A stretch of DNA of 64,000 bases from Clostridiales bacterium (GTDB taxonomy: Bacteria > Bacillota > Clostridia > Christensenellales > UBA1750), in NCBI GenBank assembly GCA_015056005.1, contig SVHB01000001.1:18799-82798 (forward strand), read 5' to 3'. Within the stretch, counting starts at the first letter, position 1; each line of letters starts with the position of its first letter. The notes beneath the pieces were generated by a model. The model was not told the DNA's origin. It did not search any database and saw only the letters and a list, made by a program, of their open reading frames with translations. Below, piece by piece: positions 23,399-55,404 of this stretch. The position numbers and the translations under genes were made by a program.

Positions 23399-24523
23399 AT
23401 GAGTGAGGTCATAAAAGCAGGGCCCACAAAGCGCTTGTGGGTACGGATCACAGCTTGCGTATTATCGCTTGCTTTGATAGTTTCGCTGGGTGTAAACGCT
23501 TTGGTTGCGGTAAAAATTCAGACCGCTCAGGCGCATGAAGCGGCAACCAACTATCTGGTGGAAAATACCGAGTATGTAAGCGCCGAGCTGCTTGAGCGAT
23601 TGGGCGAAAAGCTGCGGACCTTGCCTGAGCCGATGAATATCGAGGATTATTACAGGCTTGCGGGAACTCAGATAGCCGAGGAGAAATACGAAGAAGCGCT
23701 GTTCAGCATTGAAAAATGCATCGAATTGTTTGACGATAACCAGACCGATGAATTGTGGATAGATATTCTGATGAAAAAGGGCTGCCTTGAAGTTTTGACC
23801 CAGAGGTTTGACAAGGCGGAAGGCACGCTGAACGCCGTGCTTCAAGCCGACCCTGAACAGAAGGAAGTTTATCTGATACTTGCCCAGATCCACGCGGGAT
23901 ATGACGACCTTGATCTTCTTGAAGAGGATCTGAACAATTATCTAGCAAAGGCGAAGGACGATCTTCAGATACGTGCTCTGCTGGCGCAGACCCTGTTTGC
24001 CAAGGAAGAATATGAAGCGGCGGGCGAGCAATACCTTCTGATCCTTGATTCTCAAGGCGAGGGCGTTGATATGGCAGAGATGAATTATCTATATGCACTG
24101 ACCGGGATACAGCTCGAGAATTATCAAATCGCCAAAGAGCATATGGAAACGGCGATTCAGTTGGATGAAAGCAAATTAGATGCATATTATTATCTTGGTA
24201 TCTGCAATATGGCCCAAGAAGAATATGAAAAGGCTGTTGAAAGCTTCACCAAGGCCATCGACGGAAACAGCATGATGCAGCTGAGTTATTACAGCAGAGG
24301 CGTTTGCGGGCTGATGATAGAGGAGTACGATTATCAAAAAGCTCTGGACGACCTAAAACAAACCGAAGTTTACAATGGCGCCGATCTTGATCCCGAGATA
24401 TCGGCTCAGGCGGCAGATTTACTGGCAGAACTTGAGGCTGCGGGACTGGAAAACAGACCTCGGTCTGAAATAGTGATAAGCACTAAGAACGACGAAAATA
24501 CGGAAAATTCCGATAACGAATGA
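23399..24523 (+). CDS. Membrane-anchored tetratricopeptide-repeat (TPR) protein
   Basis: The ATG at 23399 lies behind AGAGGTGA. The N-terminus KAGPTKRLWVRITACVLSLALIVSLGVNALVAV has a basic segment followed by one TM helix (N-in signal anchor). It is followed by about 7 TPR-like helical pairs, for example AYYYLGICNMAQEEYEKAVESFTKAI. The stop TGA overlaps the next gene's ATG. Confidence 0.8.
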   Translation: MSEVIKAGPTKRLWVRITACVLSLALIVSLGVNALVAVKIQTAQAHEAATNYLVENTEYVSAELLERLGEKLRTLPEPMNIEDYYRLAGTQIAEEKYEEALFSIEKCIELFDDNQTDELWIDILMKKGCLEVLTQRFDKAEGTLNAVLQADPEQKEVYLILAQIHAGYDDLDLLEEDLNNYLAKAKDDLQIRALLAQTLFAKEEYEAAGEQYLLILDSQGEGVDMAEMNYLYALTGIQLENYQIAKEHMETAIQLDESKLDAYYYLGICNMAQEEYEKAVESFTKAIDGNSMMQLSYYSRGVCGLMIEEYDYQKALDDLKQTEVYNGADLDPEISAQAADLLAELEAAGLENRPRSEIVISTKNDENTENSDNE

Positions 24524-24657
24524 GCATGAAACAAAATACCTACCAAGCGAGAAGAGGTGATCACTTGATAGCCAAGAGCAAAGGGCTGAGCAAAAGGCTT
24601 GCATTAACGCTTATAGCGCTGATGCTTGTTTTGCTGCTGCCTGTCTGCGCCTTTGCC
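24520..24657 (+). other. Sec-type signal peptide of the giant protein (predicted cleavage AFA/QG)
   Basis: MSMKQNTYQARRGDHLIAKSKGLSKR (long basic n-region), then LALTLIALMLVLLLPV (h-region), then CAFA/QG. Confidence 0.7.
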
Positions 24658-27600
24658 CAGGGAACTGAAGGAGATGTTCCTCAGAGTGGATCTTACGGAC
24701 AAAATACAGGCGATGGGAACCAAACCCCACAGCCTGATGAAAGCCAGGAAGGATCCGAGGCAGAAGAAGGCCAGGACGATCAAAATCAGTCCAACAATCA
24801 GGATAATTCCGATAATCAGGATAACTCCGATAATCAGAATAAATCCGATGATTTGAGCGATGACGGTGATCAGAGCTCGAATGAACTTAATAACAGCAAT
24901 TCAAGAAGCATTGGTCCGGAAGAGGGTTCTGACACCGGGTCGGTGCTTGGCGCTGTTTCTCCGGGTGCGAGAACTGTTCAAGCGGGCGCTGCCTCAGCCC
25001 CTGCGGCTTCTTCCGCTCCCTCCGCTCAGGAATATGAGATTCCCGAAGGTTCGGCATATGTTGCCGGATATGAGACCACCGTTTACCGCAACAACGCATC
25101 ATCCAACGCCATTCAGCAGGCGATAGATGCAGCACTCACTGCGGGCAAGAAGGTCGGCGCCGGCGGAAGCGACGGTATCACCATCGTTGTAAACAACGGC
25201 GTTTATACCGGCGGCATCACCATCACCGCTTCAAAGGCCAACGCAGCAGCGGATATCAACAACAGCGGTACCCAAAGCGGCACGAACGGTTCCAACGAGA
25301 CTGTAGGCGACGAGGAACAGACCGAGCAGCTGATAGTGAACATCATTGCTTCGGATGCATTTGTTCCCAATGATGCCGGCGAAGTTGATTTTGATGAAGA
25401 TGATAAGCCTATCGTCCATTCCAACTCGGCAGGCGGCGTTCAGGTAGAGGGCGGCATAACCGTTGAGGATGTAAACCTTCTCCTTGCCGGCATTTACCTC
25501 ACCATGAAGGAACGCGAAAAGACCGAGGCTCAGGAAGCGAGCTCAAGCACTGCAACAACCAATGAAACCAAAAACCTCACCCGTGAGCTCGACAGCAACG
25601 AGATAAGGGTTAAGGATGCAGACAGCTTCGCATACTACGGCACGGCGCTTGACGATGATGTTGAGATAAACCTCACAGACGTTGCCGAAAGCATCGTGGT
25701 CGATTCCGGTGCGGGCAGCGATAAGATAGACCTTGATTTCACTCAGACTCCCAGCTATACCATCGATACGGGTAAACCGGGACTCGAAAACCTGAACGAC
25801 AATCAGGGCAATCTTATAGGCGATGTGCAGACTCTTGTGCAGAATGGAATAACCACCGCGATAAATGAAACAGCACATGCTGTCACCAATGATAATAAAG
25901 TTATCGTAGATTATACCGACACAAGGACCGAAGTTGAGATCAGCCTTGGCGAAGGCGACGATGAGCTGGAGTTCAAGATCACCAACTCCACTCAGATAAT
26001 CCTTCCCGGCGATACCAATTCCGGCGGCAATACTACCGGCGGCACCGGTTCTTCCACTGCTACCTCCGTTATCGTGAAGGTCGACCTTTCCGCAAGCAAG
26101 GTCACCATCGATGCAGGTGAGGGCGCAGATACCGTGACCCTTGAAGGCGGCATGGAGCTTGACAGCATTTCCACCACTGTTCTCCAGCCTCTGCTCAACT
26201 GCATCTACACCGCAGCGACCGAGCTTTCCCAGGCGACCACGACCTCTTCCGGTGACAGAGTGCTTCCTCAGACCGAGGTGACCGTCATCGGCGGCGGCGA
26301 CGACGACCTTGTGAACGTCGATACGACTCTGGCGTTCTCCACCTTCAGGGGCGTTGACGTAACTTATGTCGGCGGCTATATGGACGATGACGGAAATTAT
26401 GTCAAGAGCGACAGCGAGTTCGACAGGCTGCACCTGACCGGCAAGGTCGGCAACAGCTACATGGAAAGCGGCGACAACCGTCTGACCACAGGTACTGACG
26501 AAAAGGGCAATGTAGAAATCTACATGAATGCAAACGCCGAAGTCTCCGTCCTGAACGATGCGCTGAACCTCTCCGAGCTCTACGCTCAGCTCAAGGCCAA
26601 GCTGATAAACATCGATACCGTGACCGATATCCTCAAGGGCAAGGTCACTGTTGAGAAGACCGCAGCTCAGATGGCAGGCGAGCAGTTTAAGTCCTTCACC
26701 GACTATGTTATCAAGGATTATGCAAACGGCTCATCCTTTGAAAACCTCAGCGGCGAGGATACCTTCCTCACCAATGTTTACATCAAGGGCAATGATCTCA
26801 CCGTCGGCGATGTCAACGTGGCGAACGTGAACCTCGTTCTTTCCGCTTCCGACAGCGGCATGAACGAAGCCGGCAGCATCAAGATTGACGGCGATGTTTA
26901 CGGCAGAAACGTTCTCCTTATTCTTGAAAACACCGACAGCCACAAACTGACCCTTATGGAAAATGACCTCCAGGACGATGACGAGTCCATCGCCATCGAA
27001 GCAAGCCTGTTTGATATAGTAAGCGATGCAGCAGTGACCATTACTCAGAACGGTTCCATCAAATCGACCGACGCTGTGGACATTTCGGTCTCCAGCAAGC
27101 AGACCCAGGGTCTCATCCCTTCCCTTGAAGACATCATCCCCGGCTACGCACAGATGAGCGAGCAGGAGAAGTCCAACGCTATGGAGCAGATGAACTCTGC
27201 TTCCAACCTCAACTTCGTAGCAGTCAAGACCGGCAGCGCGCTGATAAATATAATAGGTAGAATTACCGCAGCAGCTGTCAGAGCAGCATCCGTTTCCTTC
27301 GTCGATACCGACGCGACCAACTCCGCGCTGGCAAGCTTCGGCCTGCCTCTTGCGGTCGGCGTTGTAGTATCCGAAGCGGGCGTAAACATTGAAGGCAATA
27401 TAGAAACGACCAAGGGCGGCGTAACCTTAAAGGCCGATTCCCAGGTCGAACTTACCACCGAAGCCAGATCCGGCAGACTTCCCTTCACCCTTTCGGTCTC
27501 CGTGGTCGATAACAAGGCTTATGTGGATATAAACGAAAACGCAAAAATTACCGCGGCGGGCGGCCTTTATGCGAACGCATACGGCACCGTTCAGACCCGC

Positions 27601-51600: not shown

Positions 51601-54600
51601 GGCGAGAACATCACTCTTACCGCAGAAAATGGCGGCATCGGCAAGAACACCGAAGTGGTCACCGAACAGGCCTCCTGGATCGAAGATACCATCAGCAACA
51701 TCCTTGGTGAGGATAACCCGCCCGATGCTTACAGCCCCGATAATAAGGGTACATGGGCTATTACCAGAAACGAAACCACCGGCAAGATCGAGATGACCTT
51801 CGAGATCGACTTTACCGCGATCAGGGATATCGACATCGAAACCGGAACAAACCTTAATGCAAATGCGGTTGAAGATATCGCAATATCCGAACTCACCGGC
51901 GATATGAACGCAGAAAATGTTGTTTCCACAAACGGCAGCGTTACCCTCAAGGCAAACGACGGCAGCCAGATGATTGAAAAGGTAGAAGCTAAGACCGATG
52001 CCACCGTGATCGCAAAGGAAGATCAGGATATCGCAAGCATTGAAGCCGAAACCGGAAATGCAGTCGTAAATGCAGGCGGTGACCAGAATATCGGTTCCGT
52101 AAATGCAGGCAATGACGCAGATGTAAAGGCAGCAGGACAGCAGGATATCGAAACCGTAACCGCAGGCAATGACGCGACTGTGAATGCGGGCGGTGATCAG
52201 AATGTTGGCTCCGTAACCGCAGGCAACGACATCAGCATGACCGCAGGCGGCGATCAGGATGTTGACAGTGCAGCTGCCGGAAGTGATGTTGATATGACCA
52301 CCGAGGGCACAATGTATATCGGCACGGTTACCGCAGGTGAAACCGTGGACCTCACCGCAAACGGCGATATCGTCGATGACCGTGATGAAGGCGAAACCAA
52401 GCCCAATGTCACCACAGAAAATGCGACGATGAACAGCAAGGAAGGTTCCATCGGCGAAGACCACGATAATCGTATCGATGTGGATATCGAAGGTACTCTT
52501 ACCACCGATTCCAAGGGCGATACCAACCTGAACGCAATCGGCGATCTGAATCTTACCGCAGATACCGATGAAGGTCAGATCAATGTTGACTCAAGCGGCG
52601 ATCTTACGATCACCAATACCGATAAGTATAACGACGGCGACATGAACCTCGGCGCCATCAAGGCAGAAGGCGATGTTGACATTACCGCAAAGGGCGGCTT
52701 CGAGCTTTTAGATAAGCTTGGCAGAGACGCTCAGGTAGAAGGCGATAACATCGACCTTACCGCTATGGATGGCAGCATCGGTACCAAGGAAGAACCCATG
52801 ACTGTGGATACCGCGGATGGCGGCGTTCTCAATGCCGATGCAACCGGCGGCGAGATCGTGATAACCGAGGTTGACGGCGATCTGATTCTTGATAAGATAT
52901 CATCCACCGATAACGGTGAGATCGATATCGTAAGCCCGGGCGGCATCGAAGTTGGCACTGTGACTTCTGAAGGCGGCGGCAACGTCACTCTTGAAGCACA
53001 AAACGGCGATATCACAGAATCCGATAAGACCAATAACGATTCCATCAAGGATGCAGCCGATGCCGCTGTTGAAGCTGGCAAGGCTCAGGCCAAGGTCGAC
53101 GGCCTTACCGATCAGGTAGAAGATCTTACCGATTATGTCGATGAGCTTACCGAAAACAAGGATGCTCTTACCGGCGTAAAGGATGATCTCGATAAGGCTA
53201 AGGACGATCAGAATAATGCACAAACTGCTCTGGACGATGCTAAGCAAGCTCAGGAAGATGCGAAGAAGACTTTGAGCGAAGAAGAAGAAAAACTTGAAGA
53301 GCTCAAGAACGCTGAAAATCCCGATGAGAACGCTATCAAAGAACAGCAGCAGAAGGTAGACGAAGCCAAGGATGCATACGATGACGCAGTTTCCAATACC
53401 AAGGATAAGGAAGAAGCGCTCAAGGATGCCAACGAGGCTGTAAAGGAAGCAGAAAGCGCTGCAAAGGATACCCTCAATAAGGTCAACGGCAATATCGGCG
53501 ACAGAGTAGAGGGTGTCGATGACGCAAAGAATATCGACGAGGCTATCAAGGCTCTTGAAGATGAAATAAGCGAAAAGACAGATGAACTGAACGACAAGTC
53601 CGATGAGCTCAACGAGGCCAAGAAGGCAGCTGAGGAAGCAAATCAGAAAGCCGAAGACCTTGCCGATAAGGCTGAGCCCTCCGGCATCGATACTGAGGGT
53701 GATCTCAATCTCATCCTTGGCAGCGAAGACGGCCGGGCAAGCGTAGGCACCGAGGATAATGCACTTGGCGCAACGGCCGATGGAGTGATAAGCATCACGA
53801 CTGATGAAGGTACCGAGCTTGAAGAGGTACACCTCGAAAGCGGAGACGATGTACAGCTTGCTCCCATTGAGACCAACGGCAAGACCGATATCACCGCAAA
53901 CGGAGATATCACTGGCGCATCCGATAAGGACGAACCCATAATCACCGCACCCGAACTCGAGCTCAACAGCTTGGGCGGCGATATCGGTGAGGAAGATGAT
54001 CCTCTGAAGATAAGCGTTGATGAAATCAAAGCCGGCGGCGAAAACATCTGGATCGAAAACGACAAGGATCTCAAGATCGACGAGATCGTAGCGGATGAAG
54101 ACGTGACTGTTATTGTTGACGGCGATATCACCGGCGGCGACAACGAGGACGATATCATCGGCGGCGATGTTGAACTTGAGGCTGAAGGCGATATCGGTAC
54201 TCAGGATGATCCCTTGAACGTTGAATCCGACGAGATTTCTGCAAAGGGCGATGACATCAACCTTGAAAGCGACAGCGATATCGTGGTCGACGAGATCATA
54301 GCTTCCGGCGATGTGACCATCGATACCGAAGGCTCCGTGACCGATAAGGACGATGATTCGATCATCTACGCAGACGATCTTACCATCAACGCTGAAGGCG
54401 GCGTGGGTACTCAGGACAATCCTCTTGATGTAAATGTATCCGGCACTATCACCATAAACGGCGGAATGGGCAAGGTATATATCGTAAATCACTATGTACC
54501 CGAAGAAGACGAATTCCCCGATGTTCTTGTCCATAAGCCCACCGGCATAATCGTAGCCGGCAAGTTCTCTGAAGGCGCTTACCTCTATGTGGATCACGAA

Positions 54601-55395
54601 TGTGCTCATATAGACTGCCCCGTCTGCAGATACTTAAAGGCGATCGAACCCGATAAGGCTCTGGCTTACTACCGTATCAAGCTGATCGGTGAAAGCTACG
54701 GCAGGATCAAGGTATCCATCCCCGTGGATGAGATATATAACGGAAAGATACTTACCATTGCTTACTGCGACGACGGTAAGCTCAAGACCGTGGACGCTGT
54801 TGTAAAGGACGGCTATGTGACCTTCATAGCTGATAACTTTGGAGCATTCCTTGTCCTGAACGGCAAATACACCGTCCACACAAGCGGCGAAGGCTATTAT
54901 GAGATGATCTCAGATATCCCGCATCCTCTGAGAGCTGATGTTTACAGGGATGTTGATATCGACGATTGGTACTATCCTTCGATTGCATATTCGGTATTCC
55001 TGGAACTGATCGAAGGGACCTCTCCCGGTTCCTTCGATCCCAATGCGAGCGCGACCGATACCCAGCTTATCAGAATGCTTGAAGGCATCGAAGAACAGAT
55101 CCGCAGGGTAGACAAAGACTATGAAAAACTCGATGTCCGCAATCTGTTTGGTCACGGCTCTAAAGAGGCGCTTGCACAATCCAAAGCGCTTGAAATGCTG
55201 CTTGCTTATGCAAACCTCTCCGGTCATAATGTGAACGAAACCGACGCTGTAAAATGGGCAAAAGAGAAAAATATTATCTCGTCCGACCCGCCGGGCCCCA
55301 TCTCCCGCGCAAACCTCGTTTCCACAGTCCAAAACTATACAAACATCTACGGCCCAAGATTCCTCATAGTCCCTGCTATTTGGACCGATATGTAA
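24520..55395 (+). CDS. Giant (10,291 aa) secreted, SLH-anchored repetitive surface fibre / adhesin-like protein
   Basis: A single uninterrupted 30,876-nt ORF. It has a signal peptide, beta-solenoid-type repeats, a coiled coil and a C-terminal SLH motif. It is followed by a strong terminator. The findings give the detail. Confidence 0.85.
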   Translation: MSMKQNTYQARRGDHLIAKSKGLSKRLALTLIALMLVLLLPVCAFAQGTEGDVPQSGSYGQNTGDGNQTPQPDESQEGSEAEEGQDDQNQSNNQDNSDNQDNSDNQNKSDDLSDDGDQSSNELNNSNSRSIGPEEGSDTGSVLGAVSPGARTVQAGAASAPAASSAPSAQEYEIPEGSAYVAGYETTVYRNNASSNAIQQAIDAALTAGKKVGAGGSDGITIVVNNGVYTGGITITASKANAAADINNSGTQSGTNGSNETVGDEEQTEQLIVNIIASDAFVPNDAGEVDFDEDDKPIVHSNSAGGVQVEGGITVEDVNLLLAGIYLTMKEREKTEAQEASSSTATTNETKNLTRELDSNEIRVKDADSFAYYGTALDDDVEINLTDVAESIVVDSGAGSDKIDLDFTQTPSYTIDTGKPGLENLNDNQGNLIGDVQTLVQNGITTAINETAHAVTNDNKVIVDYTDTRTEVEISLGEGDDELEFKITNSTQIILPGDTNSGGNTTGGTGSSTATSVIVKVDLSASKVTIDAGEGADTVTLEGGMELDSISTTVLQPLLNCIYTAATELSQATTTSSGDRVLPQTEVTVIGGGDDDLVNVDTTLAFSTFRGVDVTYVGGYMDDDGNYVKSDSEFDRLHLTGKVGNSYMESGDNRLTTGTDEKGNVEIYMNANAEVSVLNDALNLSELYAQLKAKLINIDTVTDILKGKVTVEKTAAQMAGEQFKSFTDYVIKDYANGSSFENLSGEDTFLTNVYIKGNDLTVGDVNVANVNLVLSASDSGMNEAGSIKIDGDVYGRNVLLILENTDSHKLTLMENDLQDDDESIAIEASLFDIVSDAAVTITQNGSIKSTDAVDISVSSKQTQGLIPSLEDIIPGYAQMSEQEKSNAMEQMNSASNLNFVAVKTGSALINIIGRITAAAVRAASVSFVDTDATNSALASFGLPLAVGVVVSEAGVNIEGNIETTKGGVTLKADSQVELTTEARSGRLPFTLSVSVVDNKAYVDINENAKITAAGGLYANAYGTVQTRTISTGTTTMPQLSYGTTQADPGTDTSNTPHQKSNTLDVGKSGGFFAVSVVDQDVFAAIRDKASVSTGADLSVRSLAHTHVVNEATSNPNEGGQSMTLDQLMIKIESLFNQVTANMNRGAGTTPGAGAAAQKPRQTNALSNIANKLTGKNNPNTSVNNVVNQGTAGASNGQNTTNSMQMVGALAVTYSGTKNEAYINTTGTVSALGDLSVYASGSMITETLADGSPVKRTSAGTTGNASGLNTTGPKDTTVGGGSYGVVTVPTMNNGTVMITGNPQPLANVNFEVWALPGYVLQSETTGTGATATTKYFITVSGPTGTPQKIYVTIDNAKTEMRTDGYTVYTLAVGQTWTAGNADTVNAVFVPKELTVTINNSNPSMGSAIVTESAASTGSAYYVDKNGDLYVKVKPNAGYTPSVSFTVGSAAAGAPAPESVVAQQVGTDAQGNKIFLIPAARVTGNITVNVDYAGQSTRLAISPTGAVSGKAQIIRTDAAGTQTVLYDNDTATTNILDHTPSNSANPVNVGETLTLTINMSGLKTGTAQKYMQKNTLRFNGSTPIYIKNITFNEQTMTYTCQIVVPAGANITDQAVITWSTTTNKNLAQGTIKNTSTALGVGVAVSVTDYENNAYIASVGGEGIEAGGIEVIAKTANASSSAISKAGFTKADLGLAGALTVNVATAKNNAEIGEGVKKIVLLEGANIKMDSTVAMSNFVTAADAGGIASATTAVTASTTTPTPSVGNAGSGSNGTLNKMGDKDDSVGVGAGIAVGVIGVDVNASIADSVSIIMKDSDKQLGGMDVKASYTGYEKSFAKAGASGGTSIVPVLALDVSGVYVNASTGTKADDPILNFANNVNINASNSIIRNIKADAAAAGTGVGVGGAFIVDVLSDSAYANLGRNVRAKKVNAKASSISRLTANGKASAAGAQNSAAAPSNPSNSNGNTNTNNNSNTNTGNNNTGNNSNGSNGSNTGSGSNSGSNQNGEADDDDLGQAMQNLFNEGEADKIADQNTQAAANMAGLANTNNVNSTNVQNLSANRQKAQTSEGSVQVAASMVVNIQENNSKASIADGITVIATEDIVVNSKNDTDGIISANSAATNSTTGVGVGVAINTVNYENIAYVGAKYIEGKSLTVKAELYETDGKYNVEKLLEKLIKQILEVVQMKTFVNRIVSAATGENVGEDITKFVLDLAQDAYGMTITNDDVKTVVDIIYARIEAALTGEDVEAPSSEEYEELIGAVISFVSDYITQGMTLQDVFGNKGWQNLISEITNNIKDKKQRQAIIDTATLALAAALGSNDELDGIGSRISATAVSGVGASNVGVAGSLALSVVNGVTKAIVSDFSGGTVNVPEGDIIITADGAQTVYTTATSSLDYKGSGDKNKAALLGSTASQNGAQTPAGGSGNNNSGSTTTSTSTSAAPATRTPTGNAATNTTQTGKTVGVGAAIAMAFADMTVHAGIGAGRSIAARSIDIQAIEQNNLETISVAGTDPIARSNANNSTNVGSVVIPNTTAKDISVDASVSVGLIDNDVKAYIGSENNNSSINLTGGDTVATDKENETVNLFVFAKQQGETKTGASGFAVGEATAVGAAVALNLAMSEVEASVNADGSVLGKVRVLAQTENYDDANALALAMGADMERYTNKIKGAQNMASVNTNTTNKKVNNRLQQQGQGNVQNQNNANPLSTNALTQNGAQTPALNQQNNNTSTGANLTNNINGAAGSANGSNVGGAVGGAVNGTNLDATAQEPQSVQVAAAVGVNVTDHNALSRISGILSAASFDALVKNNGNFATIATGAAVTTSDNSSTVGAGVAISVNQNSSVSELGGSLTATGGDINADADLTQNMDGVYRGKYGALAVAGAASGGGAAAAAGALAIMVAQGESRVEVKDNTTLSAQNGNVTLKSYDKSKLNAAAMAATISGGSTVGVGASFALLYAENEVMTIVGDDVTVKAKAFTADAKKEAVNISDFGSPVAMKDIITIIPKDQKDYLRPTDDQLGMIVLEQQKDNSYTIQTNLKTENLTDLLQMTSIIGTVNYYAMAVAGTVTGNDMNTQEKAAVAGSVSMLFNESKTKSVLGDRLNVVLIDGDMNVTASSHNNARLIGGSLSASSATAGVGVNVATIVAKDEVVASIGNGSDKDTYKGIEVKNGEVNVTAEAENDTFAITAAAVLSGNEAKATIGGSMNVIVSENKVEAEIGENVKLKASDDVNVHASNNSDLILGSMSVALQNSGSGTVAAGGTVSVTVSDNAAKASVGSGTSIESVNGAVTIGATNDELLLSLLGSVSAAAAGAAGAGTVNVLVTNAKALTTVGDNMTIKANNALKIFADGDSKLVSVLLAAAGAGSADPAVGATILVNVFNRNNSVNIGNYAALSSKTDSVTIEAYGDEKTIMVSVAGGASASSAAVSGNIQVNVGSSRTEATVGDNADIDAYDSIGVTADMDNVVALIAANASLSGGSAAVGATTITTVLNNVVTASVGANGSLNARALKEDGGIKTRNREDKRRGVIVHAFANETNVMLGISGGVSAGGAAVSGVIDTLVITNKVTASVGENTDVISGTESTVDKDGDEKADGESSDGEGDIAVEAYDKTVAINFGGAASVSGGSAAVGATVVSLIFDKDVNASLIGGNIRAAGDVDVSAKSVDDLVLLAVTAGISGGSAAVSIGGNALVFQDEVYATLGGNVVAGRNVSVKAESDSDLVNVAASVAVSGNTGVGGVAVITYFTGETIAKVKAGTSIDAKGVLTVEAISDEFVTADGAGISGGGTAGVSGTVDIIITKLTTQAIIEDSDALDRGEIKAASIKVNAKDNYKLVAVAVSASVGATAGVGVTAMVTVAKNTVTAGIGDNYDVSANGDVDVTATSDREVRTYAGSVGAGGTAGVGVTLMVTIVGGKMDADSHAALYEHFNPNALFKGTTDENGDTDQRGMKQNAPSIAGAYYSSDTLNSDLETDGNKISDTQVGHQVQRKDKDGNLLYLDANGNETTTVTGTPSMEMVYDGANDYRSDEFDEQFEEQRKDENGNLLYLDENGNETTVNTGKPSMETVGKEPGADLTIGSNSDRDAAANIGSYRPSYDPADSTTAFIGNYTNVTTSLGDINVAAYDNVVAEHVTASVGVGASAAGVGVGMAVAVIFGNVVAYVDDGAVLSAQGDVNVIARSGSTAVEAGKGMNDLLESSVKEEAGKNDISFGDLTIRTVSMSAGVGLYAGVGVAIGTTSLISNTQAYIAGNVVKANEVNVKAISNYPSVISGVLSVGGGLVGVAATVSVVTVSGETFAGITGNAQIGQDAGKGTVGNVNVLADADAGALSIGGAASAGGVAVNGVISVVVNRAKVESIIGQGVRLKSTGNVSVKSDVYTTADAILVSMAAGGVAVGVSAAVVVLDTDVMTYAGTTPSDTVSPGAVGAQLGIIEAGSLEVRSDVTTDANAYVASIAGGGVAVNGNILLVFNFTDAKTGINKINVQITGDIDVDANMDTDADSVLASATAGGVAVGVTISYVGLNSKNEAFIDTTGVTVKGNNIDVFAGREYDKNKASADTTAVAGAVGGVAVNLNAAVSDNNAANNAVVKGSGNLNAEGAVNIGANGDATANAQIVGVSAGSISVAGSFAVALLRSEQLAQLKDANVTASSLNVISNLNKDKTTASSTAELITGSGGMLTVTANVAVAYGRNKSYAEASPMTLTINGSGNVNVGSYGNADVLSKTANASVGATTAGVMVNTAYSQSEFKAIMNLPEGSEISANNVNVETVYNADATADLTPSAGGVSVDIASIGANVAVSNADSVGEAAIRGMGTINANNVTAKADGTAISLAAQNAPALAAGVANVAANILVSLLDASNKARIDGVTINNANVNVEALLNDNANVKEGSKAELGSMANASASASASISLVGAAVNTAVANNDSKNEASMTGTAVNAAGKNMTVNANANSYADALVKEATVSAGYISVGVTVTTANANGEFKAFIDNAGKNITASDIDVTNTFIAKANAATSQGILGISAADVSVNAASADAGAKGEAGIKGKGVVTADTVDVLSDGTATSNATIATSNVDVSGVEIATTSVIADLTAQNKAYINDASIKNAQVRVEANLNDGTNEGANAVIGNAFDKLSKVKFSFISANVNTAEAKNNTKNEASMTGASVEAKNKDLDVISNAASIAIAKVREADLSVGYASLGVTVIKAHANGEFQAFIDTTGAVIDVKSIDVTNTYTSKADARTAQASGGFGAKAYGFTTNVAEAKVGTKSEASIKGGGSASASGAVNVQNIGTATADSGVAQNAVSFSGVSIAANTLTSELNAVHKAFIENASVTAGSVSVISEFNKDRNDGALAQLGSAADYIATNVTLAEVAANTATATANATVHAYTENADITVNGGDVNVKVDATSNAIAEVNTPDVSLALVSIGVNVVNANANGDYQAYIDGTRGNINANNVNIHNNYSANARAKTGSSKGGLSVNGGSSQTNVANAQVGIKAGAGVNTERKSGEDETQTAESDDESDSDLTITAAAVSVIADGTAKALANVLTQSNISIAEAAVNRLTAKVNAVQFAQLNDASVTAGSVNVESKFNDGAYEGAEAVLGSATNGNISASAYSLDVNKLTVEMNGESEASIGGANITTTDSGNVNVKNDAKSYAKAYTEAASAELGLVNIGAVSASAKANGKFNAAIKDNSVITANLVNVDNVYTASSDVTVEQPKVGLSFADGRVNLADAITGVESKAYIDSSNVKANGTSFGKSIRVVNDGTATSYATVISPTVSVSVGKLLVSDVNSTVSAKQYAYISGGHINAAGETYVASLFNESNDTTGAVAELGAASFEISGASINTNTADAVISATNEAYVKNASFGSAADKSGKLNILSNAKSYASATYSQGSFGLSGANLGIMLMNANAGGVFEAYLDLTDADVNVSSIDINNTYKSISNALSTQPGGGFSTEVTIVSGNVNKAEAYSSTNASGYITGSGTVSTGAINVSVNGGGSKAEADVDGTNVVSGFSAGGNYAKSELKMVQKAYIAGSGSVNAAGAVNVQSLLNNSQVTSELGSNGGADVSLVSSDAQWSDANAKMQNSAYIGGSVKIDTANNVNVNAQTNNTTVTAKSESNVAVGLAALDVVHTNAKIDGMQTKAYITDSAEVNSNDLIVKAESMNTSLVSHAGVAGTNVSAVSGKKVSANSTVESNTTEAYTGSGTKVNTKNDVTVLADSSTQLRAGTNKSTSVSLAEVGRYEFVINVKSHTSKAYINGKVFAGNNLSVNAKNFVDADSSIDNTSVGAVTSGENKVNMNVTQTAQANIGSGADVEARNNVNINTDARADLNGRINTTGVGLGEKSKGSVRIVWNRNQKIDIGSGARISARYGNMNIISGTQTMPNLNADIDMDGGGVIVAGSGPKTSVTELSNTTVNVGAGANITALFGDLNIKTIDATKAVADSYRDMKGFAGSNQSEADVTVRANSSIYLGTNGAEQAYINGKNTTVLSDILQDLYAHAKSVTGSAGSNTKAYADINAMENNQVIDLNNVFLGGIDNLLVKAMTSKMDNTASSDARIAGAAGKATAKSNVSINNSKNGAAVVAKINMTDKAHLAGQDITIEAGAPNVHSTSLVESSAYAKAKTATNILVRIFTFGRKKNSGESVSETYDLDVTSNVILDGTFHLGGGAAGTFVDIDENGGIHFSGLDDDAFETASDVGTVSGNTVNLKKLYNNDRGNLNVFAYIGERVNSTGDDLTVKMINGAAGSNNGGNIIRHERESGKMVIFDSSFLPNVVIRNRSNKDLVLDNITVSNGKQPRPSLNIDNLTTIYDHEIPKLTVIADEDTDVTINVTSDGSQNPIHDLDVGEGIVNIEMNGGALNTAAGSSLWANKLNVLGAGTIGVDANNRFTVKMVELSEINAYEGFKAQPARTTEISMNSIGDIWADVRHVILNTYPNTVSNPVLVLGGIVSEKGNVDVYISAPGLISAQIGLNTDKDVYYPGRYDNLVLIPGSGDTPVLDKDGKATDYILTADGYLKHKDADTYLNMADLLLYTEGNDSYFLLPNNIMLKTSVVDGKLMFESAEGGSEGISYDFSNVSFELNGDNTISKITFKDEANGYKTIDFATGKVTMNIGQSGGLVYLTRDDKAVAWTLPDGTHIYLKNAFVERDENGSLVEIKPVQIGTSNGNGLYLLETVTAGRTQYHVVELKENKDGTFEFVEGYIYELQMINIGTTTENPDEQTLDEAYAAAKDVVDTFTHDESSSTAQQKAEALADAVKEKISSDWQATVTATPSTVTNADGTSAIRITLSVTIKGVDSEDVQANAITKVLNHAVENDNVGSKTETGSYVNTNNVHSVEFNKETFKDTWLGGRKGRITVLASDGNVTGMTIKNGDFTFETEYNKEIGAYVVKKPAQFGTNWLNAASHKARYEEIADKYFAAESATDENGQATGSFNVYAYSLELVNSGASGKIDGDNYNGGYKAVDGGYLFLDEDKKDSTSVNDGIFYMMGNVIAFTPDGESYAVEVDYARDENGNIINDLTKATLLYGPEMEQARDAHGNLMYTDLTFQYKDPGNNDEIEEFVSDGGDSEYQRIFNMLVEADKAYNLDNGYDINGNGVEDEFIDEQTGEVITEHWEHPYEKSLRPKEISEGVYEYDTSSLPVYTVTDFTQSRKDGKWLYTDSEGNEFTLDYSYAKLAENSDLLTEALNAHGEFAPVYTYPKGTVTISPAGSGGMYVNYMPYTEEGTISFDIPQVNGWGIIDVDTRMVVLDNDVSGLPKGTIIYLETDENNAVINPNRIIAAHLPGGFVRFYEQGTYLGMTDENGKDASVYSEASVNYAHFTKGAKLMAHQAATGVYMIPRSIGQVSLLAANAANPVSGYFHSDYFAVNSEGKLVKLNVSETKTIANGSDTDISSFGFAYPDPESEVLFEGAYISTVYETDGTKVMMYVLERKDGTENTDPTTIVLLPDGIWYASNGKAGALRSTEARNTVEYKEETLIEMTETISGEAIQIVFGGEKTTLNDDESYTGMNGTNVTDSEYANVITNNLRIIATDSGNIFGEGDPLVVKPYSGDKVNIQINSNMQDGAYAGDAYIRTILEAKVKLFDTTVAEGGLIDLDVRNGETTLSNVTVNDTGLLDVDVVEGGNVVMNNVKVIGNGEDTEGTLNVDVQGKGGDIDINTADISGDLNINTAEGDMSIKDGKISGTADLVSSGDGDIVLNKVDVADGGLLNMTTTGNGITDMDDVTVGGGSHINTKVEGSGTGNTTTMDDVTIDGTNDPENVTSSIVHTVSGSGDAVISNAIINNGKLELGIGVDGNVTFNNANVDYGDVDVNIGEDGNVTFNSSDIDNTEADVIVGENGDITFSKSNIDDTNLTVNVGADKDNAGNGNVTFDTTNIGGSIVKVDVDGNGNVSLNNVDMINSDVDVAIGGSGATKLTDVTMDKGSYTQSTAGNGTGDDEIRDFIVKSGAEAVITIGGSSDIDLNDVEVYDDGLMTLTIGSGSVDMGKVDETPDDENDDGTKVYIEGVVNVKVDSGKVNVNDVVMANADDDTASAWLNIVTGNSGGTDNDVIIDNLIADERLNIKTTGGDLLMKDNDSRVVLNASFDETNSTFDIGGNIGAHDNYFKIGYPGELEKDSLTLNIINVIDMFLTQTSDLITDLEDLPHSGRLEGEDEKTEHDEAISDLEDKDKKIYNEIPQQTEEELAQQLTSTGKLTEEELLTLIGGKLKGEEFKNLLNITDESIEGVIAALDELTQEELAQMVNDLMLKGSENEDILLEAKETNVDPMKLKLIESKKYTQSQLGRMTSAQIKQAYEAYYNDKVEEYRDAVKASYKADIEARLSSEDYLTDVQVDYLLDRGLTEDEAAVATLLAAAIKAQKVKTDANGDPIRAIDGEGNMLYIDAEGNLTTEEKAADGSENAPAYVMEVIMSDEDELFPAYWKSLTDEQKKALLESAYDVLDEETYPDPEDETARRDLVIKIGTSNGESYILNIGDITVDQKNGTFTAGEVVSSHGDVTITSDAIEGVADSDKEDVSDPYILNLYSDKLIGGDGKGTDSNIYGENITLTAENGGIGKNTEVVTEQASWIEDTISNILGEDNPPDAYSPDNKGTWAITRNETTGKIEMTFEIDFTAIRDIDIETGTNLNANAVEDIAISELTGDMNAENVVSTNGSVTLKANDGSQMIEKVEAKTDATVIAKEDQDIASIEAETGNAVVNAGGDQNIGSVNAGNDADVKAAGQQDIETVTAGNDATVNAGGDQNVGSVTAGNDISMTAGGDQDVDSAAAGSDVDMTTEGTMYIGTVTAGETVDLTANGDIVDDRDEGETKPNVTTENATMNSKEGSIGEDHDNRIDVDIEGTLTTDSKGDTNLNAIGDLNLTADTDEGQINVDSSGDLTITNTDKYNDGDMNLGAIKAEGDVDITAKGGFELLDKLGRDAQVEGDNIDLTAMDGSIGTKEEPMTVDTADGGVLNADATGGEIVITEVDGDLILDKISSTDNGEIDIVSPGGIEVGTVTSEGGGNVTLEAQNGDITESDKTNNDSIKDAADAAVEAGKAQAKVDGLTDQVEDLTDYVDELTENKDALTGVKDDLDKAKDDQNNAQTALDDAKQAQEDAKKTLSEEEEKLEELKNAENPDENAIKEQQQKVDEAKDAYDDAVSNTKDKEEALKDANEAVKEAESAAKDTLNKVNGNIGDRVEGVDDAKNIDEAIKALEDEISEKTDELNDKSDELNEAKKAAEEANQKAEDLADKAEPSGIDTEGDLNLILGSEDGRASVGTEDNALGATADGVISITTDEGTELEEVHLESGDDVQLAPIETNGKTDITANGDITGASDKDEPIITAPELELNSLGGDIGEEDDPLKISVDEIKAGGENIWIENDKDLKIDEIVADEDVTVIVDGDITGGDNEDDIIGGDVELEAEGDIGTQDDPLNVESDEISAKGDDINLESDSDIVVDEIIASGDVTIDTEGSVTDKDDDSIIYADDLTINAEGGVGTQDNPLDVNVSGTITINGGMGKVYIVNHYVPEEDEFPDVLVHKPTGIIVAGKFSEGAYLYVDHECAHIDCPVCRYLKAIEPDKALAYYRIKLIGESYGRIKVSIPVDEIYNGKILTIAYCDDGKLKTVDAVVKDGYVTFIADNFGAFLVLNGKYTVHTSGEGYYEMISDIPHPLRADVYRDVDIDDWYYPSIAYSVFLELIEGTSPGSFDPNASATDTQLIRMLEGIEEQIRRVDKDYEKLDVRNLFGHGSKEALAQSKALEMLLAYANLSGHNVNETDAVKWAKEKNIISSDPPGPISRANLVSTVQNYTNIYGPRFLIVPAIWTDM
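24796..24849 (+). repeat. Three tandem 18-nt units encoding NQDNSD/NQDNSD/NQNKSD
   Basis: The units are aatcaggataattccgat, aatcaggataactccgat and aatcagaataaatccgat. They are in-frame (6 codons each). Confidence 0.9.
36466..36705 (+). repeat. Internal duplication (147-nt period) encoding QRKD(K/E)(D/N)GNLLYLD(A/E)NGNETT..(T/K)PSME(M/T)V
   Basis: Copy 1 is 36466-36558 and copy 2 is 36613-36705. About 22 of 31 residues are identical, and the nucleotide similarity is clear. Confidence 0.85.
38300..42900 (+). repeat. Higher-order tandem repeat of ~222-246 aa (four base units each), at least 6 copies
   Basis: The marker (K/F)A(Y/F/Q)I(N/E/D)(D/N)AS(V/I)..A..V.V(E/I)..(L/F)N(D/K) recurs at 38413, 39078, 39779, 40455, 41194, 41881 and 42571. 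A second marker, AN(A)NG(E/D)(F/Y)(K/Q)A(F/Y)ID, recurs at about 38724, 39421, 40100, 40783, 41521 and 42210. Confidence 0.8.
48745..50300 (+). repeat. Asp/Asn/Gly-rich short-period (~19-21 aa) repeats
   Basis: An example stretch is GDVDVNIGEDGNVTFNSSDIDNTEADVIVGENGDITFSKSNIDDTNLTVNVGADKDNAGNGNVTFDTTNIGGSIVKVDVDGNGNVSLNNVDMINSDVDVAIGG. Confidence 0.7.
53050..53675 (+). other. Predicted ~208-aa alpha-helical coiled-coil segment
   Basis: AAVEAGKAQAKVDGLTDQVEDLTDYVDELTENKDALTGVKDDLDKAKDDQNNAQTALDDAKQAQEDAKKTLSEEEEKLEELKN...ELNEAKKAAEEANQKAEDLADKAE. Gly and Pro are rare, E/K/D/A/L are abundant, and the spacing is heptad-like. Confidence 0.7.
54943..55083 (+). other. S-layer-homology (SLH) motif, with a further degenerate SLH-like segment to about 55370
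   Basis: YRDVDIDDWYYPSIAYSVFLELIEGTSPGSFDPNASATDTQLIRMLEG fits the SLH consensus ((F/Y)xDV..W....I......G...G.F.P....T..Q...ML). Downstream, AVKWAKEKNIISSDPPGPISRANLVSTVQNY resembles a second, weaker SLH. Confidence 0.65.
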
Positions 55396-55404
55396 CAAAC
55401 CGCA

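What the first reader, a model, noticed from the sequence alone, without database searches (positions are those of the whole stretch)
24520..55395. Uninterrupted 30.9-kb ORF encoding a 10,291-aa secreted, wall-anchored mosaic fibre protein
One frame runs from the ATG at 24520 to the TAA at 55393-55395 with no stop or frame break. It has its own upstream AT-rich promoter region (through the coupled TPR gene) and a strong terminator at 55405-55435. Reading the translation gives this order of parts:
- a Sec signal peptide;
- an acidic N/Q/D/S-rich disordered stretch;
- a pectin-lyase-fold-like cap;
- three InlB-B-repeat-like modules;
- about 15 kb of 53-54-aa Gly/Ala/Val repeats with inserts;
- a ~1,070-aa non-repetitive aromatic-rich core;
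- Asp/Asn/Gly short repeats;
- an acidic helical region;
- a ~208-aa coiled coil;
- a Cys/His knuckle;
- an SLH-type anchor.
I see no LPXTG sorting signal and no recognisable toxin or enzyme signature. Proteins above 10,000 aa are very rare in bacteria, and I cannot assign this domain order to a described adhesin family. With the anchor at the C-terminus, the N-terminal beta-helix would be the distal tip. If the ~54-aa repeats form a solenoid at about 4.8 A per rung, the stalk alone would be on the order of 10^2 nm (inference).
Basis: partly seen in the sequence, partly recalled or inferred. Interest (0 to 1): 0.9.

Follow-up and report, generated by a model that had tools for sequence, protein, structure and literature searches.

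The report
Giant clostridial surface-fibre protein with TPR partner
The 30.9-kb gene is real and encodes a 1-megadalton secreted beta-sheet fibre protein; it belongs to a widespread but undescribed family of giant proteins in anaerobic Clostridia that always sits behind a small membrane-anchored TPR gene, and its function, probably adhesion, is untested.

Summary
The ORF at 24520..55395 (10,291 aa, 1.06 MDa, pI 4.3) is confirmed. It is not an assembly artefact. The DNA has almost no tandem repeats. Eighteen contigs from other metagenome assemblies match the window at 99.6-100% identity, and one 52.5-kb contig carries a called gene of the same 10,291 aa.

Known libraries see almost none of it. 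Pfam finds one SLH domain, and NCBIfam finds the LktA-type 53-aa repeat at threshold.

It is not an orphan:
- 37 genome loci, all from Clostridia MAGs, carry a relative, and every one is a giant reading frame.
- The C-terminal 1,200 aa has 452 homologues, including a colinear full-length 7,941-aa protein.
- A TPR protein with an N-terminal membrane anchor is encoded directly upstream in most loci that have upstream sequence.

AlphaFold2 models the stalk confidently (pLDDT 87) as an all-beta array with no PDB match.

The "SLH anchor" is an eroded triple-SLH module, and many relatives lack SLH altogether.

Best reading: a Sec-exported cell-surface fibre, probably an adhesin, made together with an extracytoplasmic TPR partner. 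It is a new variant of a known kind, of moderate interest.

The parts
23230..23259 (+). Hairpin after the FGGY kinase gene; upstream boundary of the tpr-giant unit
   Evidence: Inverted repeat AAGCCTGAT/ATCAGGCTT read in the sequence
23315..23323 (+). Extended -10 promoter-like box TGGTATAAT in the AT-rich intergenic region
   Evidence: Sequence reading. The consensus scan, which requires a -35 box, did not call it, so it is an inference.
23399..24523 (+). TPR partner gene, 374 aa: basic N-terminus, one transmembrane segment, then a TPR domain predicted to lie outside the membrane
   Evidence: RBS AAAGAGGTG at 23383-23391 with ATG at 23399. The exact 374-aa product is found on 14 other contigs. 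TPR Pfam hits. A homologue lies directly upstream of the giant gene in about 27 related loci.
24520..55395 (+). Giant ORF: 10,291 aa, 1.06 MDa, pI 4.26, 7 Cys
   Evidence: independent assemblies
24520..24657 (+). Signal peptide (aa 1-46), likely cleaved at AFA|QG
   Evidence: Sequence reading. The same design is seen in relatives. No signal-peptide predictor was available.
24658..25026 (+). Acidic N/Q/D/S-rich low-complexity stretch (aa 47-169), including an 18-nt tandem repeat at 24796-24849
   Evidence: 20% D+E and 44% N/S/T/Q; TRF
25027..28389 (+). Conserved N-terminal cap (aa 170-1290): beta-rich, with four family-invariant GxGxDxU (RTX-like) motifs at aa 397, 477, 533 and 591, and a strain-variable loop at aa 238-262
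   Evidence: Homologues at 25-56% identity; invariant columns; AF2 pLDDT 69, pTM 0.72; motif scan; variable loop
28390..29394 (+). Three putative Ig-like modules (aa 1291-1625)
   Evidence: No Pfam hit here. The region aligns with homologue P0003 next to its Flg_new_2 domain.
29395..44319 (+). Stalk (aa 1626-6600): roughly 70-90 Gly/Ala/Val-rich units of 53-58 aa, with inserts
   Evidence: Own HMM finds 48 units between aa 990 and 6430; self-BLAST; 37-38% G+A+V
33745..36261 (+). Most regular part of the stalk (aa 3076-3914): LktA-type units, modelled as an all-beta array
   Evidence: NF012206 at 50.2 bits, 8 stretches; AF2 pLDDT 87.2, pTM 0.88; no PDB or BFVD fold match
38020..42669 (+). Higher-order repeat (aa 4501-6050): about seven copies of a roughly 228-aa unit (4 x 57 aa), up to 48% identical
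   Evidence: Self-BLAST offsets of about 228 aa
44320..48369 (+). Non-repetitive aromatic-rich core (aa 6601-7950), function unknown
   Evidence: No internal repeats; no Pfam, NCBIfam, PDB or PHROG hit; conserved in relatives P0011, P0014, P0019 and P0021
48370..50319 (+). Asp/Asn/Gly-rich short-repeat beta region (aa 7951-8600)
   Evidence: Self-similarity; 18% D+E
50320..51369 (+). Acidic region, presumed helical (aa 8601-8950)
   Evidence: Composition only: 24% D+E
51370..53019 (+). Second acidic beta-repeat region (aa 8951-9500), including 19-aa units encoded by a 57-nt DNA repeat
   Evidence: TRF period 57 at 52066-52264; self-BLAST
53020..53679 (+). Coiled-coil-like segment (aa 9501-9720)
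   Evidence: Weak matches to SMC and MukB coils and to a phage tape-measure coil
53680..54489 (+). Third acidic beta-repeat region (aa 9721-9990), about 72-aa units
   Evidence: Self-BLAST, 38% identity, E 1e-30; conserved in relatives
54490..54924 (+). Conserved C-terminal domain (aa 9991-10135): H-x-C...CxxC plus AYC, then a DGYVTF strand motif. It holds 4 of the protein's 7 Cys.
   Evidence: Alignment A4; about 50 homologues; Cys positions
54925..55392 (+). Eroded triple-SLH tail (aa 10136-10291); SLH1 at aa 10142-10179 (nt 54943-55056)
   Evidence: Pfam SLH 25.8 bits against a cut-off of 20.8; alignment A6 to relatives with three SLH domains
55404..55432 (+). Intrinsic terminator: 11-bp G+C-rich stem followed by a T-run
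   Evidence: AAAGCGCACCC/GGGTGCGCTTT followed by TTTGC

Best explanation
The window carries a two-gene chromosomal unit, tpr plus giant, from an uncultured member of the Clostridia. Its closest relatives are Oscillospiraceae MAGs.

The giant gene encodes a 1.06-MDa acidic, Cys-poor protein. It is exported by the Sec pathway through an N-terminal signal peptide and folds outside the cell into a long, mostly beta-sheet fibre. In order, the fibre has:
- a conserved N-terminal cap with four RTX-like GxGxD turns;
- a stalk of about 70-90 LktA-type units of 53-58 aa;
- a conserved non-repetitive core;
- acidic beta-repeat blocks interrupted by a coiled coil;
- a small Cys-containing C-terminal domain;
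- a degenerate SLH module.

The C-terminus stays near the wall and the cap is the distal, ligand-facing end. The protein therefore acts as a fibrillar adhesin or spacer towards plant particles or other cells.

The co-transcribed, translationally coupled TPR protein is tethered to the membrane with its TPR domain outside. It serves as a dedicated assembly, chaperone or retention factor for the fibre.

**Shown:** the ORF and its continuity, the family, the conserved gene pair, the repeat anatomy, the all-beta stalk model, and the eroded SLH module.

**Inferred:** export and signal-peptide cleavage, Ca2+ binding, orientation, the adhesive function, and the role of the TPR protein.
For: **Real gene.** ORF and translation. 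Divergent repeats at the DNA level. Eighteen independent contigs at 99.6-100% identity, one with a called gene of identical 10,291-aa length.

**Extracellular protein.**
- Signal peptide conserved across relatives.
- pI 4.26, 7 Cys in 10,291 aa, and no hydrophobic segment after the signal peptide.
- SLH domain above the Pfam cut-off.
- Triple SLH at the C-terminus recurs in relatives in two different arrangements.

**Fibre.**
- NF012206, named 'tandem repeat-containing filamentous protein', at threshold.
- 48 HMM-detected units plus a 228-aa super-repeat.
- The AF2 stalk model (pLDDT 87.2, pTM 0.88) is all beta, with one roughly 12-residue, one short and one roughly 20-residue strand per unit.
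- The only fold hits, all weak, are beta-helix adhesins such as EtpA, HxuA, Ag43 and SepA.

**Family.**
- 37 of 37 genome loci from Clostridia MAGs carry giant frames, with 20-32 stalk units in the first 4,300 aa or so.
- P0016, 7,941 aa with its own signal peptide, is colinear with the window protein from cap to C-terminal domain.

**TPR partner.**
- Its stop overlaps the giant's ATG.
- A homologue lies directly upstream in about 27 loci, while no other neighbour is conserved.
- All these homologues have a basic N-terminus followed by a transmembrane segment.

**Possible Ca2+ binding.** Four GxGxDxU motifs are invariant in the family.
Against: - There is no expression or localisation data.
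- No ligand-binding domain is recognised. The cap, the core and the C-terminal domain match nothing in Pfam, NCBIfam, PDB sequences or PHROGs.
- The SLH module is eroded, with Asp for Arg at the TRAE-motif position in SLH1 and deletions in SLH2 and SLH3. Many relatives have no SLH. Wall anchoring through the C-terminus is therefore not assured, and the protein could be released.
It could be a flattened solenoid or a hairpin meander.
- One population carries a frameshift in the gene. Two relatives have interrupted frames.
- The TPR topology rests on the positive-inside rule applied by eye.
Confidence: 0.6

Rival explanations
1. It is a released exoprotein or toxin. Like Fusobacterium leukotoxin LktA, which shares the 53-aa repeat, the protein would be secreted and shed to act on other cells, for example by membrane damage or contact-dependent antagonism. 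It would not be a wall-anchored fibre.
For: - The only recognised repeat family is the LktA type.
- The SLH module is eroded here and absent in many relatives, including the full-length 7,941-aa P0016.
- In a single-membrane cell, a Sec substrate without an anchor is released.
Against: - No toxin, pore-forming or enzymatic domain is found anywhere.
- There is no TPS domain and no TpsB partner.
- Intact triple SLH recurs at the C-terminus in several branches of the family.
- The organisms are gut and digester anaerobes and syntrophs, not pathogens.
- What the 53-aa repeat contributes to LktA's toxicity is, to my knowledge, unknown.
Confidence: 0.12
2. It is a structural coat or matrix protein. 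The giant beta-sheet protein would lie along the cell surface or between cells, as an S-layer-like sheath, a biofilm or aggregate scaffold, or a link between syntrophic partners. It would not project as a tipped adhesin.
For: - SLH domains are typical of S-layer and envelope proteins.
- The stalk model has very wide strands of about 20 residues, compatible with a ribbon or sheet.
- The family is frequent in aggregate-forming digester taxa such as Syntrophomonas and in anaerobic membrane bioreactor (AnMBR) MAGs.
- RsaA, an S-layer protein, is among the weak fold hits.
Against: - There is a single gene copy and no evidence of self-assembly.
- The strongly conserved, distinct N-terminal cap and C-terminal domain suggest a polar molecule with specialised ends.
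- The RsaA hit is insignificant (E 5.5, TM 0.07).
Confidence: 0.15
3. It is an artefact or a dead gene: a chimeric or mis-collapsed metagenomic assembly, or a decaying pseudogene that is no longer expressed.
For: - One assembly has a 1-nt deletion that splits the ORF.
- Two relatives have a frameshift or an in-frame stop.
- The SLH module is eroded.
Against: - Eighteen independent contigs are colinear with the window, and one has a called gene of identical length.
- The DNA is not repetitive.
- A 30.9-kb frame cannot stay open without selection.
- Architecture and gene order are conserved across orders of Clostridia.
Confidence: 0.03

Closest known systems
Fusobacterium necrophorum leukotoxin LktA and NCBIfam NF012206 (LktA_tand_53, 'tandem repeat-containing filamentous protein')
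   Same: It has the same roughly 53-aa Gly/Ala/Val-rich tandem unit, matched at 50.2 bits against a cut-off of 50 with 8 stretches in aa 2501-5100. Both are very large, secreted, beta-rich proteins.
   Different: From my own knowledge, LktA is about 3,200 aa, comes from a double-membrane bacterium, is exported with a TpsB-type partner (LktB) and is a leukotoxin. The protein here has a Sec signal peptide, no TPS domain and no TpsB. It has a TPR partner instead, is three times longer, and adds a cap, a core, a coiled coil, a C-terminal domain and SLH. Only the most regular part of the stalk reaches the model's threshold.
Beta-helix adhesins of Gram-negative bacteria (TpsA proteins such as FHA, EtpA and HxuA; autotransporter passengers such as Ag43, Hap and SepA)
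   Same: Both are elongated all-beta repeat fibres exposed on the cell surface. These proteins are the top, though insignificant, Foldseek hits for both models.
   Different: There is no significant sequence or fold match (best E 0.05, TM 0.11 or less). The unit here is 53-58 aa with strands of about 20 residues, not a rung of about 19-22 aa. The secretion route and cell envelope also differ.
SLH-anchored surface proteins of Firmicutes (S-layer proteins such as Sap and EA1; cellulosomal anchoring scaffoldins)
   Same: An SLH module lies at the C-terminus of a Sec-exported protein. Relatives carry three canonical SLH domains.
   Different: Here only one SLH passes Pfam, and the module is eroded. 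Many family members lack it. Nothing else in the protein resembles S-layer or scaffoldin domains.
Giant fibrillar adhesins of Gram-positive bacteria (for example Ebh of Staphylococcus aureus, about 10,000 aa; SasG and Aap)
   Same: They share the scale and the logic: signal peptide, long repetitive stalk, and a wall-proximal C-terminus.
   Different: From my own knowledge, those proteins use helical FIVAR-GA or G5-E repeats and LPXTG or transmembrane anchors. This protein has no LPXTG and no transmembrane segment, and its repeats are unrelated.
Giant proteins of gut Clostridia reported by West-Roberts et al. 2023 (bioRxiv 10.1101/2023.11.21.568195)
   Same: That study reports predicted proteins of 10,000-30,000 aa from Clostridia, including Oscillospiraceae, in mammalian gut metagenomes, and interprets them as surface-binding proteins.
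   Different: Those proteins are built from RCC1, Listeria-Bacteroides repeat, YG repeat, dockerin and LRR domains. None of these is found here. The text I read does not mention a TPR partner gene for them.
RTX adhesins (LapA and MpIBP type)
   Same: Both are acidic giant proteins. The cap has four invariant GxGxDxU turns resembling single RTX nonapeptides. RTX blocks appear among the weak fold hits.
   Different: There are no tandem nonapeptide arrays, no HemolysinCabind Pfam hit, and no type 1 secretion signal or genes.

Membership tests
NF012206 LktA_tand_53 (tandem repeat-containing filamentous protein) | Score at or above the curated cut-off (50 bits), with multiple tandem 53-aa units | tested here: met
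   50.2 bits, 8 stretches, tile aa 2501-5100. This is marginal. The tiles aa 1-2600 and aa 5001-7400 give no hit even at E 0.1.
Two-partner-secretion exoproteins (TpsA; LktA operon type) | N-terminal TPS secretion domain and an adjacent TpsB outer-membrane transporter | tested here: not met
   No Pfam or NCBIfam hit in the N-terminal 2,600 aa. The upstream gene is a TPR protein and the downstream genes are unrelated.
SLH-anchored cell-wall proteins | Three tandem SLH domains (PF00395) | tested here: inconclusive
   One SLH at 25.8 bits against a cut-off of 20.8. Alignment to relatives with three SLH domains shows that SLH2 and SLH3 are partly deleted.
SLH-anchored cell-wall proteins | Conserved TRAE-type motif (Arg) in each SLH, needed to bind pyruvylated wall polymer (established knowledge from the Sap and SpaA structures) | tested here: not met
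   SLH1 reads ATDTQ, with Asp in place of Arg. SLH2 reads SKEAL. Only SLH3 (ISRAN) keeps the Arg.
SLH-anchored cell-wall proteins | Host makes pyruvylated secondary cell-wall polymer (CsaB) | not testable with these tools
   Only 64 kb of the genome is available, and no csaB-like gene was seen among the window genes scanned.
LPXTG sortase substrates | C-terminal LPXTG motif, hydrophobic segment and basic tail | tested here: not met
   The only LPx[TSA]G-like match is LPHSG at aa 8630, and there is no C-terminal hydrophobic segment.
InlB B-repeat / Flg_new_2 (PF18998) | Pfam match at or above the gathering score | tested here: not met
   No hit for aa 1281-1627 even at E 10. Homologue P0003 has Flg_new_2 at residues 1204-1277, next to the region that aligns with aa 1385-1594. 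Remote relatedness therefore remains possible.
Pectin-lyase-like right-handed beta-helix | Pfam Beta_helix-type match or a significant fold match | tested here: inconclusive
   No Pfam hit. The AF2 cap model has pLDDT 69. The best Foldseek hits are beta-helix proteins but are insignificant (E at least 0.05, TM at most 0.11).
RTX proteins | Tandem GGxGxDxUx nonapeptides, a HemolysinCabind match and type 1 secretion | tested here: not met
   There are four isolated motifs, not tandem arrays, and no Pfam hit.
Omnitrophota-type giant proteins (West-Roberts et al. 2023) | Numerous transmembrane regions and divergent SecA DEAD helicase domains | tested here: not met
   There is no hydrophobic segment beyond the signal peptide and no such Pfam domains. 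The definition is taken from the paper's abstract.
The undescribed tpr-giant family defined here | Homologous cap, stalk units and C-terminal region in the same order, a giant reading frame, and a TPR signal-anchor gene directly upstream | tested here: met

The most novel reading that the evidence does not exclude
The tpr-giant pair is a previously undescribed, Clostridia-wide two-component system for building a megadalton surface fibre. The Sec-exported stalk would adopt a wide-strand beta architecture with no solved counterpart. The membrane-tethered extracytoplasmic TPR protein would be its dedicated assembly or retention factor, making the pair a functional analogue of two-partner secretion in single-membrane bacteria. 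Such fibres might mediate attachment between syntrophic or gut partners.
Probability: 0.3. Interest if true: 0.7.

Novelty: new variant of a known kind. Interest (0 to 1): 0.55.

Why it matters
- **Annotation gap.** Giant surface proteins shape how anaerobes attach to particles, hosts and partner cells. They are usually broken up in metagenome assemblies and are invisible to domain libraries. This gene is 99% unannotatable with Pfam, yet it belongs to a family found in Oscillospiraceae, Christensenellales, Syntrophomonadaceae, Anaerovoracaceae and other Clostridia from guts and digesters.
- **Testable partnership.** The invariant upstream TPR signal-anchor gene gives a concrete handle on how a single-membrane cell exports, folds and retains a 1-MDa protein.
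- **Structural target.** The confidently predicted stalk has no match among solved structures, which makes it a candidate for structural work.
- **A general repeat.** The LktA-type repeat, known from a Fusobacterium toxin, appears here as a general fibre-building unit in a quite different secretion context.

Tried and rejected
- **Homology searches that failed on size or time.** The whole protein and a 5,000-aa half exceeded limits or timed out.
- **A false negative.** Searching the core (aa 6600-8000) with the search for homologous proteins returned nothing. BLAST against the proteins returned by the exhaustive search shows clear core homologues: P0011, P0014, P0019 and P0021.
- **Wrong start codon.** An exact look-up of the TPR protein from the GTG at 23393 failed. 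The ATG at 23399 is the start that other assemblies call.
- **Domain libraries.** Pfam and NCBIfam on all tiles gave only SLH, LktA_tand_53 and coiled-coil noise.
- **Solved structures by sequence.** The cap, the core and the C-terminal third gave nothing meaningful.
- **Phage origin.** PHROGs gave only a coiled-coil match to a tape-measure protein. Phage origin is rejected, also because the flanks are housekeeping genes: Hsp33, GuaA, LigA and PcrA.
- **Fold searches.** Foldseek on both AF2 models against PDB, and on the stalk against BFVD, gave no usable match.
- **Metagenome scan.** The first alignment was too divergent to use. A narrower alignment gave only three loci.
- **Literature.** Searches for the family name, the LktA repeat, and giant proteins of Syntrophomonas or with SLH found no description of this family.
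- **Stalk geometry.** I could not obtain model coordinates, so the rise per unit remains unresolved.
Full report
**1.

The ORF listing reports one ORF at 24520..55395 on the + strand, 10,291 aa, starting at ATG. Its translation has a single stop, at the end.

The ATG overlaps the stop codon of the upstream gene (ATGA). A hairpin with an 11-bp G+C-rich stem and a T-run lies at 55404-55432. Upstream, a hairpin at 23230-23259 ends the preceding kinase gene. An extended -10 box (TGGTATAAT, 23315-23323) sits in the AT-rich spacer before the TPR gene. The transcription unit is therefore most simply tpr plus giant.

The many antisense ORFs inside the gene, up to 734 aa, are by-products of its GCN/GTN/GGN-rich codon usage.

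**2. It is not an assembly artefact**

The protein repeats are divergent at the DNA level. Tandem Repeats Finder sees only six short arrays in 32 kb.

Exact-protein look-ups with the flanking TPR gene and with the small downstream gene recovered 18 contigs from other JGI and ENA metagenome assemblies. All align to the window at 99.6-100% identity, and the giant gene carries an indel in only one of them.

One 52.5-kb contig carries a called gene of exactly 10,291 aa. Another holds at least 9,712 aa, still open at the contig end.

There is one exception. In sample 3300029705 a 1-nt deletion near window 47002, not in a homopolymer, splits the gene.

I could read only 10 kb at each end of those contigs. 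For the middle 11 kb, continuity rests on the identical called gene length.

**3. Anatomy**

The protein is 1.06 MDa with pI 4.26. It has only 7 Cys, one in the signal peptide and four in the C-terminal domain.

| aa | Part | Evidence |
|---|---|---|
| 1-46 | Signal peptide, AFA\|QG | |
| 47-169 | Acidic low-complexity stretch | |
| 170-1290 | Conserved cap | |
| 1291-1625 | Three putative Ig-like modules | |
| 1626-6600 | Stalk | |
| 6601-7950 | Non-repetitive aromatic-rich core | |
| 7951-8600 | Acidic Asp/Asn/Gly beta-repeat block | |
| 8601-8950 | Acidic, presumably helical region | |
| 8951-9500 | Second acidic beta-repeat block | |
| 9501-9720 | Coiled coil; matches SMC and MukB coils | |
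| 9721-9990 | Third beta-repeat block, about 72-aa units | |
| 9991-10135 | C-terminal domain with H-x-C...CxxC | |
| 10136-10291 | SLH tail | |

An HMM grown from one stalk unit finds 48 units between aa 990 and 6430. In the regular part they are spaced 53-58 aa apart. Self-BLAST shows that aa 4501-6050 is a higher-order repeat of about 228 aa (4 x 57), with about seven copies up to 48% identical. I estimate 70-90 units in all.

**4. What the libraries see**

- Pfam finds nothing in the first 7,400 aa and only one SLH in the rest: 23.8 bits on the long tile and 25.8 on the 302-aa tail, against a cut-off of 20.8.
- NCBIfam finds NF012206 (LktA_tand_53, "tandem repeat-containing filamentous protein") at 50.2 bits against a cut-off of 50, with 8 stretches. 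This applies only to the tile aa 2501-5100.
- PDB sequences, PHROGs and NCBIfam give nothing for the cap, the core or the C-terminal domain.
The second gains some support because homologue P0003 has a Flg_new_2 domain at the equivalent position.

**5. It belongs to a large, undescribed family of giants**

- **Cap homologues.** The cap has homologues at 25-56% identity in MAG proteins. NCBI names these "beta strand repeat-containing protein, partial" or "hypothetical", from Lawsonibacter and Anaerovorax.
- **Genome loci.** A scan of one genome per species found 37 loci, all in Clostridia MAGs: Oscillospiraceae, Lawsonibacter, Oscillibacter, Ca. Scatomorpha, Christensenellales, Syntrophomonas and Syntrophomonadaceae, Anaerovoracaceae, Gudongella and others.
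- **All are giants.** In 35 loci the reading frame runs off the fetched DNA, at 4,200-4,700 aa or more wherever 10 kb of flank was available. The two apparent exceptions are interrupted giants: a frameshift followed by 2,295 open codons, and an in-frame stop followed by 2,793. The relatives carry 20-32 stalk units in their first 4,300 aa or so.
- **C-terminal homologues.** An exhaustive HMMER search with the C-terminal 1,200 aa gave 452 hits at E of 1e-3 or better, 51 of them at 1e-30 or better.
- **A full-length relative.** P0016 is 7,941 aa, has its own signal peptide, and is colinear with the window protein from cap to C-terminal domain.
- **The core is conserved.** P0011, P0014, P0019 and P0021 cover it. 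My earlier empty search of the core was therefore a limitation of the word index.
- **The window's own species.** No locus exceeds 56% identity to the cap, so this species appears to be absent from that genome set.

**6. The TPR gene is a conserved partner**

A tblastn of the window's neighbours against the related loci shows the TPR protein encoded directly upstream of the giant gene in about 27 loci, at 25-47% identity. No other neighbour is conserved.

All these TPR proteins begin with a basic stretch and one hydrophobic segment, followed by an EAAxNYLVE-like motif. By the positive-inside rule the TPR domain faces outward. This is my reading; no topology predictor was available.

In the window the two genes overlap by 4 nt, which suggests translational coupling. 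NCBIfam gives only generic TPR similarities, to PilW, PrsT and SycD-type chaperones, all far below their cut-offs.

**7. The anchor is eroded**

Relatives show three C-terminal designs:

- The Cys-containing domain followed by 8-20 residues and the stop, with no SLH. P0016 is of this type.
- The same domain followed by three clear SLH domains. P0018 scores 92 bits with 3 stretches.
- Three SLH domains directly after the beta repeats (L056, L057).

The window protein is of the second type but decayed. When it is aligned to five relatives, SLH1 is complete but has Asp where the others have the Arg of the TRAE-type motif. SLH2 lacks its first half. SLH3 is truncated but keeps the Arg. The tail motif YGPxxLI is retained.

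Recurrent C-terminal SLH in the family supports a wall-proximal C-terminus. Whether this particular module still binds wall polymer is open.

**8. Structure**

- **Stalk.** AlphaFold2 on aa 3076-3914, with 14 homologues and four paralogous segments as the alignment, gave pLDDT 87.2 and pTM 0.88. The model is all beta. Each unit has a roughly 12-residue strand, a short strand and a roughly 20-residue strand. Later units show alternating strands of 20-26 residues.
- **Two-layer sheet.** The alternating hydrophobic and polar pattern in the strands suggests a two-layer sheet, so I favour a flattened solenoid. I had no coordinates, and a hairpin meander is not excluded. At 0.48-0.96 nm per unit, 70-90 units give about 35-85 nm for the stalk.
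- **No solved counterpart.** Foldseek found no significant match in PDB (best: HxuA, E 0.2, TM 0.08) and none of use in BFVD.
- **Cap.** The cap model (pLDDT 69, pTM 0.72) is mostly beta. Its best hits are all beta-helix adhesins or RTX blocks, and all are insignificant.
- **Possible Ca2+ sites.** Four GxGxDxU motifs in the cap are invariant across the family. I read these as possible Ca2+-binding turns, which is an inference.

**9. Interpretation**

The best-supported reading is a Sec-exported, extracellular, polar fibre made together with an extracytoplasmic TPR partner. Its C-terminus lies near the wall and the conserved cap is the distal end. By analogy with other giant repeat proteins it would be an adhesin or spacer.

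The rivals are:

- a shed LktA-like exoprotein, favoured by the weak or absent SLH but with no toxin module;
- a coat or matrix scaffold;
- an artefact or pseudogene, which is largely refuted.

Function, orientation and the role of the TPR protein are inferred, not shown.

**10. Novelty**

Giant surface proteins are a known kind. Predicted proteins of 10,000-30,000 aa in gut Clostridia have already been reported, but with RCC1, Listeria-Bacteroides, YG, dockerin and LRR domains (bioRxiv 10.1101/2023.11.21.568195).

I found no description of this architecture or of the tpr-giant pairing. I therefore rate it a new variant of a known kind. It is real and family-defining, and of moderate rather than exceptional interest.

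Noticed in passing
window 47002 (L050, locus position 1477): In JGI sample 3300029705, contig Ga0224414_10024905 lacks one G (GAAGTC[G]ACTATG; not a homopolymer). This splits the giant gene into two called products, one of at least 2,260 aa (cut by the contig start) and one of 2,773 aa. It may be a real pseudogenised subpopulation or an assembly error.
   Followed up: partly
window 25230-25304 (aa 238-262): Fifteen SNPs cluster in 75 nt in contigs L003 and L004, changing DINNSGTQSGTNGSNETV to GLNSNGTQNGTTGSDETT. The stretch is a low-confidence loop in the cap model, which makes it a strain-variable surface loop at the putative tip.
   Followed up: partly
L033 4985 onward; L041 13970 onward: Two relatives have interrupted giant genes. 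An Aristaeellaceae MAG has a frameshift followed by 2,295 open codons. An Oscillospiraceae MAG has an in-frame stop followed by 2,793 open codons. Sequencing error, pseudogenisation or read-through were not distinguished.
   Followed up: no
L056 2101-3351; L057 10001-11101: Metagenome relatives end with the beta repeats followed directly by three SLH-like domains that carry TRAE/TRGE motifs. They have no Cys-containing C-terminal domain, so this is a third C-terminal design in the family.
   Followed up: partly
window 55947-58055 (-) and 58065-58544 (-): Two genes lie downstream on the opposite strand, neither with any Pfam or NCBIfam match. One encodes a 702-aa protein with a signal peptide and an aromatic-rich C-terminal part. 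The other encodes a 159-aa putative lipoprotein (signal peptide plus Cys). Their synteny is seen only in same-species contigs.
   Followed up: no
window 55527-55889 (+): A small 120-aa ORF right after the giant gene's terminator has no family match. Its exact product is present on 23 other contigs.
   Followed up: no
window 14887-20645 (+): A cluster upstream of the FGGY kinase gene encodes a GH106 rhamnosidase-like protein (1,139 aa), a radical-SAM/SPASM protein and an FAD-dependent oxidoreductase. GH31-like and second GH106-like genes lie at 2247-7487. This points to a plant-glycan-degrading lifestyle.
   Followed up: no
window 24520-55395, minus strand: About 23 antisense ORFs of 150-734 aa lie inside the giant gene (for example 34693-36897, 734 aa). 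They are most simply a side effect of stop-poor reverse frames in Gly/Ala/Val-rich coding sequence, not genes.
   Followed up: no
window 44317-48519: the search for homologous proteins returned no hit for the core. Yet BLAST against the proteins returned by the exhaustive search of the C-terminal 1,200 aa shows clear core homologues at 28-49% identity. This is a caution about null results from the word-indexed search on this kind of protein.
   Followed up: yes
window 36460-36800 and about 51100 (aa 3985-4050, 7525, 8860): Short motifs of the form D-x-N/D-G-N-x-L-Y-x-D-x-N-G-N-E-T recur as inserts, twice in a stalk insert and again in the core and in the helical region. They have no family match. 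They might be small hairpin or ligand-binding inserts.
   Followed up: no
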